This document shows positions 24,001 through 27,000 of a stretch of DNA of 64,000 bases, one piece after another. The stretch lies in the NCBI RefSeq assembly GCF_056712565.1, contig NZ_CM160072.1, one strand, 5' to 3'. How positions within the stretch are numbered: position 1 is the first letter of the stretch; each line of letters begins with the position of its first letter. The position numbers were made by a program.

Positions 24001-27000
24001 AGTAACAAACCAGCAAAACCTGCGCCAAAATGATCAATTGCTACACTGATACCGGCCGCCTTTAGCGATTTAACCGCTTCGGCAAACTCATCAAACCGAG
24101 ATATGACTTCACTTTCAGTAAATTCAACGATGATTTGTTCAGGTACCAGAGCATTGGCCTTTATTTCATCAAGTAAAAAAGAGACTGCGTCAGGTTTGTT
24201 AACCAGGGTCATAGGTAATAGATTGATTGAAATCATTTTATCACCGAGCTTAAGTGCGTGTGCCATCGCAAATGCAAGCGCCTTACTTTTGAGATCCGCT
24301 GTGTAGATTTCCTCGTCTTTACGCTGCCCAACCGCTATAGCTGACGGGCTGTCTTCATTTTTTTGCACAATGGCTTCAAAAGCGATTATCCGCCGCGATA
24401 AAGGGTCGACAATAGGATGAAAGGCAAAGTGGTCGTTTATATTTGATGAAAGGGTACAAGAATCAAGTTCTTTATCAGATCCGTCAGCGATAAAAAGCCA
24501 GGAGTCTTCAGCAGGAATCTCGAAATAGGTTGATTGTTCAGTTGCAAGGACAAAAGTACGAAAAAATTGTAGCGCTCTGTCATCATAAGTTAGCTGAAAT
24601 TTTGATGTGCCTTTGTCGAATACGGCCTGTAAAACGTCATCTCGCTCGTGCAGGCGTAAATCAAATAATTCCATTCCTGCTTTGCCAAAACGGCGAGCAG
24701 GCGCGTAATCGCACAACAGTTCAACAATATTATAGTGCCGTGGATCCTGGCATATGGCCCGATATATCATTTGAACCTGTTCTTCCGGACCTTCCAGAAG
24801 CTGGAAAAAATGAGAACCATTAAACAGTAAGATCCCTGTTACGTCAGACCGCATGTTCCTGCGATTTGCTATCGAAACCATTTCTTCAATTTTTTTGACA
24901 GGTTCGTCGCCACGTATATGGCTACGATAAATAAGGGTGGTAAGCATTAACAATCCAGGGTAATGGGCGAGGCGAGAGTAAGACGGTAACAGACATATCT
25001 TCTTGTGTCTTTCTTTTAATACCAAAACATAACCGTTTCTTTACATTGATAAAAAGTGGAAAAGGTTGAAGACGGTTTGGCGAAAAAACCTGTATAGGTT
25101 GTCATTTAAATGATGCAATATGTTTTATCGTAATGCATTGTTTTATATGAATTAGCACTAATTGCGAAAAATTAATTTATCATTCTGTACACATATTTCG
25201 TACAAGTTTGCTATTGTTACCTCACTTAACATTGATTAACATTTTTAACAGAGGCGTAGCATGCATCAAAATTCAGTGACTTCAGATTCTGCAGGAGCAA
25301 TCACTCGTTACTTTGCAAAAGCTAACTTGCCTACTCAGCAGGAAACTCTCGGAGAAATTGTGACTGAGATTTTGAAAGATGGACGTAATCTGAGTCGAAA
25401 GTCGCTTTGTGCCAAACTTCTTTGCCGGCTGGAACAAGCGACAGGGGAAGAGGAACAGAAACATTATAATGCACTAATTGGGTTGCTTTTTGAATAATGC
25501 AACAGCCTGATTATTTAACAGGTTAGCTATGAAGTCGTTATGAAGACATCTGATAATGAAAGTATAAAATATGAAATTACTGGCCAGGCGGTGCTCCAGA
25601 TACTGCGCATGAAGATAAATTTTTCGTTGCAGACTCTTATTAAGCAATTACTCGTAATGAAATCGGCTGAGGAAAATACTTTCCGACGAGATTTAATTGA
25701 CAGCATAATTCGTGATTTTAGCAACAGTGATACAGGAGGGCCAAACCGAAGAACAGCGATAGCTGACAATAAAAGTATGTTCACTGGTAAGAAAATAAAC
25801 AGAATACATTAAAATTTCATAAGTAAGATGAGAGGTTACCATGCTTGAAGATACTACTATTCATAATGCAATATCTGATAAAGCGTTATCAAGTTACTTT
25901 CGTAGTTCAGGTAATTTGTTAGAAGAAGAGTCTGCTGTGTTAGGGCAGGCTGTGACCAATTTAATGCTTTCAGGCGATAATGTTAATAATAAAAATATTA
26001 TCTTAAGTCTGATACACTCCCTGGAAACAACAAGTGATATTCTCAAAGCTGATGTGATTAGAAAAACACTGGAAATCGTGTTGCGATACACAGCTGATGA
26101 TATGTAACTTTTAATTATAAAGTATAAGTTTATAGAAAACTCATTCATCTTATTTTTGTCTGTCGCTTTAGACTATACACAGCATAATTTTATTGGATCA
26201 CTATTCCTGCGAGGCTGACATGAATAATTCAATCCCAGAGAGATTTATTTTTCAATGTGCTTTGTTTAAAAATCTCGAGAGGGAGGTGTTCATGACACAT
26301 GGATATGTTGATAGTCATATTATTGCTCAGGCTTTACGCTTGCGTTTAAAAGATGAGACCAGTGTTATTCTTTCTGATCTCTATCTGCAAATCTTGCAGT
26401 ACATTGAAATGCATAAGACTACACTAACGGATATCATTATTAATGACAGGGAATCTGTGCTCTCTTAAAACTTGAGTAAGGTTTTTGAATAAACATCAGC
26501 TGTATCACTATGCTGATGCAAAGTGAGCATTTCAGGCGTTATGCTTTCTTAATATATCCGCAATATCAGAGGGCAAACAGGAATGGAGAGCGCTCGTTTT
26601 CCATTCTTGACGCCTGATATCCCGCCTAATTTGTTTAATTCTGCCTACATTGTGCTAAAAAATTAATAGGCTAGATGAAGTTGGAGAAAATTTTATCTTC
26701 GGCGTGGATATTTGTGATGCTCTCTACCATGCTCTCTGTAGACCCCAGCGCGAGCGAATGAACGTCTCTTTAGCTTCTACAGACTTATCGATAAAGGCTT
26801 TGGGATTTTGATATTTATTCTGTTAATCGCCTGCGCCGCTGCCTTCCTGCTTGATAGGTATTTCAATAAAAGCGCAACGCCTGAAGAGATCCTGCGACGG
26901 GCTATAAATAATGGGGAGATCGTCCCTTTTTACCAACCTGTGGTAAATGGTCGGGAAGGGACATTGCGGGGAGTTGAGGTGTTAGCCCGCTGGAAACAAC

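What the first reader, a model, noticed from the sequence alone, without database searches (positions are those of the whole stretch)
25026..25260. GTACA repeat pair in the bluF/ycgZ divergent control region (candidate BluR operator)
TGTACA-N8-GTACAA at ~25186-25205 lies 55-75 bp upstream of ycgZ. MerR-like MlrA, a BluR paralogue, recognises TGTACA-containing palindromes. I rate this moderately.
Basis: partly seen in the sequence, partly recalled or inferred. Interest (0 to 1): 0.3.

Follow-up and report, generated by a model that had tools for sequence, protein, structure and literature searches.

The report
Known BluR operator at ycgZ promoter
The GTACA repeat pair is real and is exactly the already published binding site where the E. 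coli repressor BluR shuts off the blue-light-controlled ycgZ-ymgABC biofilm operon, so it is correct but not new.

Summary
The window is E. coli (100% identical to strain ATCC 11775 here).

It is the published BluR operator. Tschowri et al. 2012 (PMC3509220) footprinted BluR on the K-12 ycgZ promoter. They found a "GTACA...GTACA / TGTAC...GTACA" motif over the -35 hexamer and spacer. Five operator mutants reduced or abolished BluR binding in vitro and derepressed ycgZ in vivo. Their mutated bases (C-39, T-38, G-37; G-24 to A-20) map, with +1 = 25224, onto window C25185-G25187 and G25200-A25204. K-12 and the window are identical across the whole core promoter.

New here:
- 34 of 41 other enterobacterial species with bluR-bluF/ycgZ synteny keep both pentamers exactly upstream of ycgZ. 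The background rate is 1 match in 328 kb.
- Most of these species carry TGTACA-N7-TGTACA.

Caveat: RcdA also footprints this spacer and may overlap the site.

Noticed in passing: a perfect, equally conserved TGTACA palindrome lies across the -10/+1 of the bluR promoter (23584-23615). I found no description of it.

Verdict: observation confirmed, interpretation supported, already known, low interest.

The parts
25185..25205 (+). BluR operator at the ycgZ promoter (cTGTACAcatatttcGTACAa), positions -39 to -19 relative to +1
   Evidence: Sequence. Published footprint, EMSA and in vivo mutants mapped onto the window. Identical in K-12.
25186..25190 (.). Half-site 1, TGTAC (-38 to -34); overlaps the -35 hexamer
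   Evidence: The mutants C-39A/T-38G(/G-37A) were among the five operator mutants that reduced or abolished BluR binding and derepressed ycgZ. Exact in 34 of 41 other species.
25200..25204 (.). Half-site 2, GTACA (-24 to -20); lies in the promoter spacer
   Evidence: Mutants at G-24, T-23, A-22, C-21 and A-20. Conserved across species.
25188..25193 (+). Putative -35 hexamer (TACACA), inferred from the published 18-bp spacer
   Evidence: Inference. The spacer is stated as 18 bp and the -10 is placed at 25212-25217. The figure that boxes the hexamers is not readable with these tools.
25209..25217 (+). Extended -10 (TGcTATTGT), with the C at -13 typical of sigma-S promoters
   Evidence: Sequence. 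Kettles 2019 describes an extended -10 and sigma-38 determinants. It lies 6 nt upstream of +1.
25224..25224 (+). ycgZ-ymgABC transcription start (+1, an A)
   Evidence: The published 5' end is 36 nt upstream of the ATG. This numbering makes all 8 mutated bases match the window and puts the marbox centre at -62.
25155..25169 (+). MarA marbox (GCACTAATTGCGAAA), centre 25162 = -62; a neighbouring activator site, not part of the operator
   Evidence: Kettles 2019 (PMC6900184) places MarA 62 bp upstream of +1 in forward orientation, consensus GCAHWWWWTGYYAAA. The mapping to the window is mine (14 of 15 positions).
25261..25497 (+). ycgZ, first gene of the repressed ycgZ-ymgA-ariR-ymgC operon
   Evidence: ORF; 96% identical to K-12 YcgZ; Pfam YmgB family.
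22800..23531 (-). bluR (ycgE), the MerR-like repressor that binds the operator
   Evidence: Pfam MerR_1, MlrA_helical and MlrA_C. Three substitutions against K-12 (Q78E, N82S, A152T), none in the HTH.
23736..24947 (-). bluF (ycgF), the BLUF-EAL anti-repressor that releases BluR from this DNA
   Evidence: Pfam BLUF and EAL; annotated as bluF in RefSeq; function from Tschowri 2009/2012.

Best explanation
The GTACA pair is the operator of BluR (YcgE), a MerR-like repressor of the MlrA subfamily, within the ycgZ-ymgA-ariR-ymgC promoter. BluR contacts two half-sites, TGTAC at -38..-34 and GTACA at -24..-20 (+1 = window 25224). [quoted passage not shown] Bound BluR keeps RNA polymerase (mainly the sigma-S holoenzyme) off the promoter. 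The dyad centre is near -29 rather than mid-spacer, and BluR acts as a repressor only, unlike the classical MerR twist-activators. In blue light the BLUF-EAL protein BluF binds BluR and pulls it off the DNA. The operon is then expressed, and its small proteins activate the Rcs phosphorelay, which lowers curli and raises colanic acid. Shown by published experiment on the identical K-12 sequence: binding, the bases required, and in vivo derepression. Shown here: the coordinate mapping, identity to K-12, and conservation. Inferred: steric occlusion as the mode of repression, the exact -35 assignment, and that BluR binds the site as a dimer.
For: The motif is at the stated place. The published DNase I footprint, five EMSA mutants and single-copy ycgZ::lacZ derepression equal to a bluR knockout all concern this motif. 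All 8 labelled bases match the window with +1 = 25224, and the footprint and EMSA fragments map to 25092-25267 and 25147-25304. K-12 and the window are identical across 25167-25220. The cognate bluR and bluF genes are intact next door. The 60-bp core promoter is present in 4909 of 5426 complete E. coli genomes, and 4545 keep at least a 28-nt exact stretch of the 32-mer around the operator. The two minority alleles I found (C25199A in 17 genomes, G25206T in 95) lie outside both pentamers. Across genera, 29 of 41 species with bluR-bluF/ycgZ synteny have an exact TGTAC-N9-GTACA within 130 nt upstream of ycgZ and 5 more have N10. The rest of the same loci gives 1 match in 328 kb, while the 12 nt flanking the motif carry under 0.5 bit per column. 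Positions not used for anchoring are also conserved: A+5 in 29 of 30, T+8 in 29 of 30, T+22 in 30 of 30.
Against: Nothing contradicts it. There are four caveats. (1) I could read the text, legends and primer table but not the figure with the exact protected bases. (2) The site is not a canonical MerR operator: the inverted arms are only 5 bp, the spacer is 18 bp, and the dyad is off-centre. (3) TGTACA resembles the -35 consensus TTGACA, so part of the conservation of one half-site could reflect promoter function. (4) RcdA, a TetR-type factor, also footprints this spacer, and its box TTGTnnACA overlaps half-site 1 with one mismatch. BluR may therefore not be the only occupant.
Confidence: 0.95

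Rival explanations
1. The motif, or its upstream half, is also or instead a binding site for RcdA (YbjK). RcdA is a TetR-family regulator that binds the ycgF-ycgZ spacer and is needed for normal ycgF (bluF) expression. RcdA and BluR would then share or compete for the same DNA.
For: Shimada et al. 2012 (PMC3535384): genomic SELEX gave 6 clones from the ycgF-ycgZ spacer. DNase I footprinting gave a 'promoter-proximal' 36-nt protected band, with RcdA boxes 'in tandem' in this spacer. ycgF mRNA fell in an rcdA mutant. The RcdA box is TTGTnnACA. The high-affinity palindrome TTGTGTACAttTGTACACAA contains TGTACACAA, against TGTACACAT at window 25186-25194. One-mismatch box matches lie at 25183-25191, 25185-25193 and 25186-25194.
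Against: The RcdA box carries little information: 173 one-mismatch matches in the window against 192 expected. The protected sequence is given only in a figure I cannot read, so overlap is unproven. The cross-species conservation tracks bluR synteny. The five BluR-specific operator mutants explain ycgZ repression fully.
Confidence: 0.3
2. The site is a target of the paralogue MlrA rather than of BluR.
For: MlrA recognises TGTACA-type half-sites, and BluR cross-binds the MlrA box at csgD weakly, so the two specificities overlap.
Against: The MlrA box has 12 nt between hexamers, whereas here there are 7-8. A bluR knockout and the operator mutations derepress ycgZ equally. The motif co-occurs with bluR, not mlrA, in 41 syntenic loci.
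Confidence: 0.04
3. The repeat is a chance feature of an AT-rich promoter, or merely the -35 element.
For: Within one 64-kb window the pattern with 1 mismatch allowed appears in 12% of shuffles. TGTACA matches TTGACA at 4 of 6 positions.
Against: The exact pair recurs in 34 of 41 species at -75 to -87 from the ycgZ ATG, against a background of 1 in 328 kb. The second half-site lies in the spacer, where no promoter element is expected. Published mutagenesis shows function.
Confidence: 0.01

Closest known systems
BluR (YcgE) operator in the E. coli K-12 ycgZ promoter (Tschowri, Lindenberg & Hengge 2012, Mol Microbiol 85:893; PMC3509220)
   Same: It is the same element. The sequence is identical from 25167 to 25220, the half-sites are the same, the position relative to +1 is the same, and the flanking genes are the same.
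   Different: Only the strain background differs: a B2-type type strain with 3 BluR substitutions outside the HTH, and one C/T difference at -3 (window 25221) just downstream of the -10.
MlrA box at the csgD promoter (AAAGTTGTACA-N12-TGCACAATTTT; Ogasawara 2010 as quoted in PMC3509220)
   Same: The GTACA core is the same, it is recognised by a 49%-identical paralogue, and BluR binds it weakly.
   Different: The hexamers are 12 nt apart there, against 7-8 here. The MlrA box lies upstream of the promoter and activates. The BluR site lies within the promoter and only represses.
Classical MerR-family operators (MerR, CueR, ZntR, SoxR: a dyad centred in a 19-20-bp spacer; Brown et al. 2003 as summarised in PMC3509220)
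   Same: The regulator is MerR-fold, the site overlaps the promoter between -35 and -10, the spacer is longer than optimal, and binding bends the DNA (hypersensitive sites).
   Different: The spacer is 18 bp rather than 19-20. The dyad centre is near -29, over the -35 side. There is no ligand-induced activation. Release is by a protein anti-repressor (BluF).
CarA-CarS of Myxococcus xanthus (a MerR-like repressor released by an acidic anti-repressor that mimics operator DNA)
   Same: The logic is the same: a light-dependent anti-repressor competes with operator DNA for the DNA-binding domain. The comparison was drawn by Tschowri 2012.
   Different: The anti-repressor fold is unrelated (SH3-like CarS against BLUF-EAL BluF), and the operator sequence is different.
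RcdA box (TTGTnnACA; PMC3535384)
   Same: It contains TGTACA in its best palindrome, and RcdA footprints the same intergenic spacer.
   Different: The protein is TetR-family, the consensus is of low information, and overlap with the BluR operator is not established.

Membership tests
BluR operator of the ycgZ promoter | Sequence identical to the experimentally defined K-12 operator | tested here: met
   The alignment of window and MG1655 is identical over 25167-25220. The wild-type parts of the mutagenic primers match 25179-25199.
BluR operator of the ycgZ promoter | The bases whose mutation reduces or abolishes BluR binding fall inside the motif | tested here: met
   C-39, T-38, G-37, G-24, T-23, A-22, C-21 and A-20 equal window 25185-25187 and 25200-25204 with +1 = 25224. 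All 8 bases agree.
BluR operator of the ycgZ promoter | Protection by purified BluR (DNase I) and BluR-dependent repression in vivo | not testable with these tools
   Published for the identical K-12 sequence. Not repeated for this strain.
BluR operator of the ycgZ promoter | Intact cognate repressor and anti-repressor genes adjacent | tested here: met
   bluR has MerR_1 and MlrA_C domains. bluF has BLUF and EAL domains. There are 3 and 15 substitutions against K-12 respectively.
BluR operator of the ycgZ promoter | Conserved with the bluR-bluF/ycgZ unit in other species | tested here: met
   29 of 41 species have exact N9 spacing and 5 more have exact N10, at -75 to -87 from the ycgZ ATG. The background is 1 in 328 kb.
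Canonical MerR-type activator operator | Dyad symmetric site centred within a 19-20-bp -35/-10 spacer | tested here: not met
   The published spacer is 18 bp. The dyad centre is 25195 = -29, over the -35-proximal side (my mapping). This is consistent with the published repressor-only behaviour.
MlrA box | Two TGTACA-type hexamers separated by 12 nt with AAA(A/G)T flanks | tested here: not met
   The hexamers here are 7 nt apart (TGTACA-N7-cGTACA), and the flanks are ttc and agt. The modal spacing in other species is also N7.
RcdA box | Match to TTGTnnACA inside an RcdA-protected stretch | tested here: inconclusive
   Three overlapping one-mismatch matches lie on half-site 1, but such matches are at chance frequency.

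The most novel reading that the evidence does not exclude
BluR-family repressors may recognise the self-complementary hexamer TGTACA in two geometries, and the locus may hold two ancient operators rather than one. The first is the known ycgZ site. Its ancestral form is TGTACA-N7-TGTACA (13 bp centre to centre), and E. coli carries a degenerate version shifted about 8 bp closer to the -10. The second is a perfect CTTTGTACAA-N12-TTGTACAAAG palindrome over the -10/+1 of the bluR promoter (window 23584-23615; 19-20 bp centre to centre, MlrA-like). I found no description of this second site. If BluR or MlrA binds it, bluR would be negatively autoregulated or cross-regulated. That would add a feedback loop to the blue-light circuit.
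Probability: 0.35. Interest if true: 0.35.

Novelty: already known. Interest (0 to 1): 0.08.

Why it matters
For the finding itself, little. It re-identifies from raw sequence a site that was footprinted, mutated and tested in vivo in 2012. The modest added value is comparative. The operator is a deeply conserved feature of the bluR-bluF/ycgZ unit across at least 34 enterobacterial species, with a cleaner ancestral form (TGTACA-N7-TGTACA) and a different register relative to the -10 than in E. coli. The by-product, a conserved TGTACA palindrome on the bluR promoter, is a cheap and testable hypothesis of BluR autoregulation.

Tried and rejected
- The sigma-70 promoter and terminator scan of 24900-25320 gave only one chance-level promoter match (25245-25272) and no terminator. 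It did not find the real sigma-S promoter.
- Relaxed motif searches (2 mismatches) in the window are at chance level and give no further ycgZ-type sites.
- The RcdA-box scan is uninformative: 173 matches against 192 expected.
- Tschowri 2009 (Genes Dev) could not be retrieved by PMC id or DOI. I therefore could not check whether bluR autoregulation was tested there.
- The literature search 'BluR + autoregulat' was swamped by the English word 'blur'. 'ycgE + autoregulat', 'BluR + bluF + ChIP-exo' and 'BluR/MlrA/SELEX' gave nothing relevant.
- SrsR (YgfI) binds near bluR through a different box (TCAGATTTTGC) and is unrelated to this motif.
- The BrfS paper added only family context.
- A 45-mer of the window's bluR-promoter palindrome matched only 141 E. 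coli genomes. This was because of a central spacer SNP, not loss of the element. The K-12 allele is in 4608 genomes.
- I could not account for about 250 of the 4909 genomes that carry the 60-mer but lack a 28-nt exact word in the operator 32-mer. The two alleles I found explain 112 of them.

Full report
**What is in the sequence.** The window is Escherichia coli. A 501-bp stretch around the finding is 100% identical to strain ATCC 11775 and is annotated bluF | ycgZ in about 4900 complete genomes. Gene layout:
- bluR, 22800-23531, minus strand (MerR_1, MlrA_helical and MlrA_C domains)
- bluF, 23736-24947, minus strand (BLUF and EAL domains)
- ycgZ, 25261-25497, plus strand, followed by ymgA, ariR and ymgC

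TGTACA is at 25186-25191, an 8-nt spacer follows, and GTACAA is at 25200-25205, which is 56-75 nt upstream of the ycgZ ATG. It is unique in the window. The full pattern with one mismatch allowed has an expectation of 0.14. The exact TGTAC-N9-GTACA form has an expectation of 0.03. The only correction concerns the left edge of the "control region". The coordinate 25026 derives from an over-long TTG ORF. bluF starts at the ATG at 24947, so the intergenic region is 24948-25260.

**What it is.** It is the published BluR operator. Tschowri, Lindenberg and Hengge 2012 (PMC3509220) carried out DNase I footprinting with tag-free BluR on a ycgZ promoter fragment. [quoted passage not shown] Two hypersensitive sites indicated bending. 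Mutations in either half-site reduced or abolished binding in EMSA. [quoted passage not shown]

**Mapping the published mutants.** The figure is not readable with my tools, but supplementary Table S1 is. The five mutants are:
- C-39A/T-38G
- C-39A/T-38G/G-37A
- G-24A/C-21A
- T-23C/A-22G/A-20G
- G-24A/T-23C/A-22G/C-21A/A-20G

I set +1 at window 25224, an A with 36 nt between it and the ATG, which matches the published "36 nucleotides upstream". With that numbering all eight labelled bases coincide with the window: C25185, T25186, G25187, G25200, T25201, A25202, C25203 and A25204. The footprint fragment corresponds to 25092-25267 and the EMSA fragment to 25147-25304. K-12 and the window are identical from 25167 to 25220. 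The BluR proteins differ at three positions outside the helix-turn-helix.

**Promoter context.** The -10 is an extended TGcTATTGT (25209-25217), with the C at -13 typical of sigma-S promoters. With the published 18-bp spacer the -35 falls at about 25188-25193 (this assignment is inferred). Half-site 1 (-38..-34) therefore sits on the -35 and half-site 2 (-24..-20) sits in the spacer. The dyad centre is near -29.

Kettles et al. 2019 (PMC6900184) add a forward marbox centred at -62 through which MarA activates sigma-70-dependent transcription. I map it to GCACTAATTGCGAAA at 25155-25169, whose centre 25162 is exactly -62 from 25224. An A/T-rich UP half-site lies between the marbox and the operator.

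**How it works.** These steps are published. BluR is a MerR-like repressor and a paralogue of MlrA (49% identity). It acts as a repressor only. In blue light BluF binds BluR and releases it from the operator, and the ycgZ-ymgABC products activate the Rcs system. Steric exclusion of RNA polymerase is the natural reading of a site that covers the -35 and the spacer, but it is an inference.

**Conservation within E. coli.**
- The 60-bp core promoter is present in 4909 of 5426 complete genomes, all at 95% identity or more.
- 4545 genomes retain at least a 28-nt exact stretch of the 32-mer centred on the operator.
- Two minority alleles lie outside both pentamers: C25199A in 17 genomes and G25206T in 95.
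- About 250 genomes remain unresolved.
- One strain carries IS1 inserted exactly at the -10.

**Conservation across genera.** A scan of one genome per species with BluF returned 80 loci. Of these, 41 have the bluR-bluF/ycgZ arrangement.
- 29 of the 41 carry an exact TGTAC-N9-GTACA within 130 nt upstream of ycgZ, and five more have N10. All lie at -75 to -87 from the ATG.
- The rest of the same loci yields one match in 328 kb.
- Flanking columns carry under 0.5 bit. Positions not used for anchoring are nearly invariant: A+5, T+8 and T+22.
- In most genera the second half-site is a full TGTACA (T at +13 in 22 of 30). The ancestral operator is thus TGTACA-N7-TGTACA, two self-complementary hexamers 13 bp apart. 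The mixed "direct plus inverted" symmetry noted in 2012 is the E. coli/Citrobacter remnant of that form.
- The distance from half-site 2 to the predicted -10 is 7 nt in E. coli and the Citrobacter freundii group, but about 15 nt elsewhere. The -10 keeps its distance to the ATG. In other genera half-site 2, not half-site 1, would therefore overlap the -35. This is an inference, because no start sites are mapped there.

**Rivals.** The only serious one is co-occupancy by RcdA. Shimada et al. 2012 (PMC3535384) recovered the ycgF-ycgZ spacer by genomic SELEX and footprinted a 36-nt promoter-proximal stretch. They describe tandem RcdA boxes (TTGTnnACA) there. Their best palindrome, TTGTGTACAttTGTACACAA, resembles TGTACACAT at 25186-25194. 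However, the box is so degenerate that one-mismatch matches occur at chance frequency, and the protected sequence is not given in the text. I rate overlap at about 0.3. It would complement BluR rather than replace it. MlrA as the main binder and pure chance are both effectively excluded.

**Comparison with known systems.** This is the K-12 BluR operator itself. It differs from the MlrA box in hexamer spacing (12 nt there, 7-8 here), and the MlrA box is an upstream activating site. It differs from canonical MerR operators, which have a 19-20-bp spacer, a centred dyad and ligand-induced activation. Both membership tests were run and not met, in agreement with the published repressor-only behaviour. 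In logic it resembles CarA-CarS, as the authors noted.

**Noticed in passing.** Upstream of bluR lies a perfect 10-bp inverted repeat, CTTTGTACAA-N12-TTGTACAAAG (23615-23584, minus strand).
- It flanks a TATATT -10 and includes the published bluR start, 54 nt upstream of the GTG.
- It has identical arms in K-12, and the K-12 allele is present in 4608 E. coli genomes.
- A TGTACA-N11..14-TGTACA pair (mode N13) occurs at -77 to -88 from the bluR start (one locus at -99): exactly in 27 of 42 sequences (the window plus 41 loci) and with at most one mismatch in 35 of 42. The background is zero in 326 kb.
- The 2012 paper tested only ycgZ and csgD fragments. It contains no mention of autoregulation or of a bluR-promoter site.
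- I could not retrieve the 2009 paper.

This looks like an undescribed BluR or MlrA operator and is the only potentially new item.

**Verdict.** The element is already known and of low interest.

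Noticed in passing
window 23584-23615 (bluR promoter, between bluR and bluF): A perfect 10-bp inverted repeat, CTTTGTACAA-N12-TTGTACAAAG (TGTACA-N14-TGTACA), spans a TATATT -10 (23597-23592) and the published bluR +1 (about 23585/6). 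It is the only exact TGTACA-N5..16-TGTACA in the window (expected 0.03). The arms are identical in K-12, and the K-12 allele is in 4608 of 5426 E. coli genomes. A TGTACA pair (mode N13) is found upstream of bluR exactly in 27 of 42 sequences and with at most one mismatch in 35 of 42, against a background of 0 in 326 kb. This suggests BluR autoregulation or MlrA input. I found no description of it in the accessible literature.
   Followed up: partly
L002-L081, 130 nt upstream of the ycgZ homologues: Outside E. coli and the Citrobacter freundii group the ycgZ operator is TGTACA-N7-TGTACA and lies about 15 nt, not 7 nt, upstream of a conserved TTGTATAACTT -10-like box. The operator register relative to the promoter therefore differs by about 8 bp between lineages.
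   Followed up: partly
window 25183-25194; K-12 ycgF-ycgZ spacer: RcdA (YbjK, TetR family) was reported to footprint this spacer. Its box TTGTnnACA and its palindrome TTGTGTACAttTGTACACAA resemble TGTACACAT at half-site 1. BluR and RcdA occupancy may overlap, but this is not resolved.
   Followed up: partly
L083 (E. coli strain 2900, NZ_CP103633.1), equivalent to window about 25211/25212: An IS1 element is inserted immediately after GTTTGC, at the start of the -10 hexamer of the ycgZ promoter. The BluR operator is left intact, but the -10, +1 and ycgZ are separated from it.
   Followed up: no
window 25199 and 25206: Two minority E. coli alleles flank half-site 2. C25199A (-25) is in 17 genomes. 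G25206T (-18) is in 95 genomes. Both spare the GTACA pentamers. About 250 further genomes carry some other change within 25185-25208 that I did not identify.
   Followed up: partly
window 24948-25025: The mechanical ORF list extends bluF to a TTG at 25025 (429 aa). The annotated ATG is at 24947 (403 aa), and the BLUF domain starts at residue 2 of that form.
   Followed up: yes
E. coli genome search results: Twelve of the matches to the bluF-ycgZ promoter region lie on records classed as plasmids rather than chromosomes.
   Followed up: no
L012, L017, L064 (Lelliottia/Enterobacter-like), upstream of bluR: In these three loci the bluR-upstream pair has the short ycgZ-type spacing (TATACA-N7-TGTACA/TATACA) instead of N12-14.
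   Followed up: no
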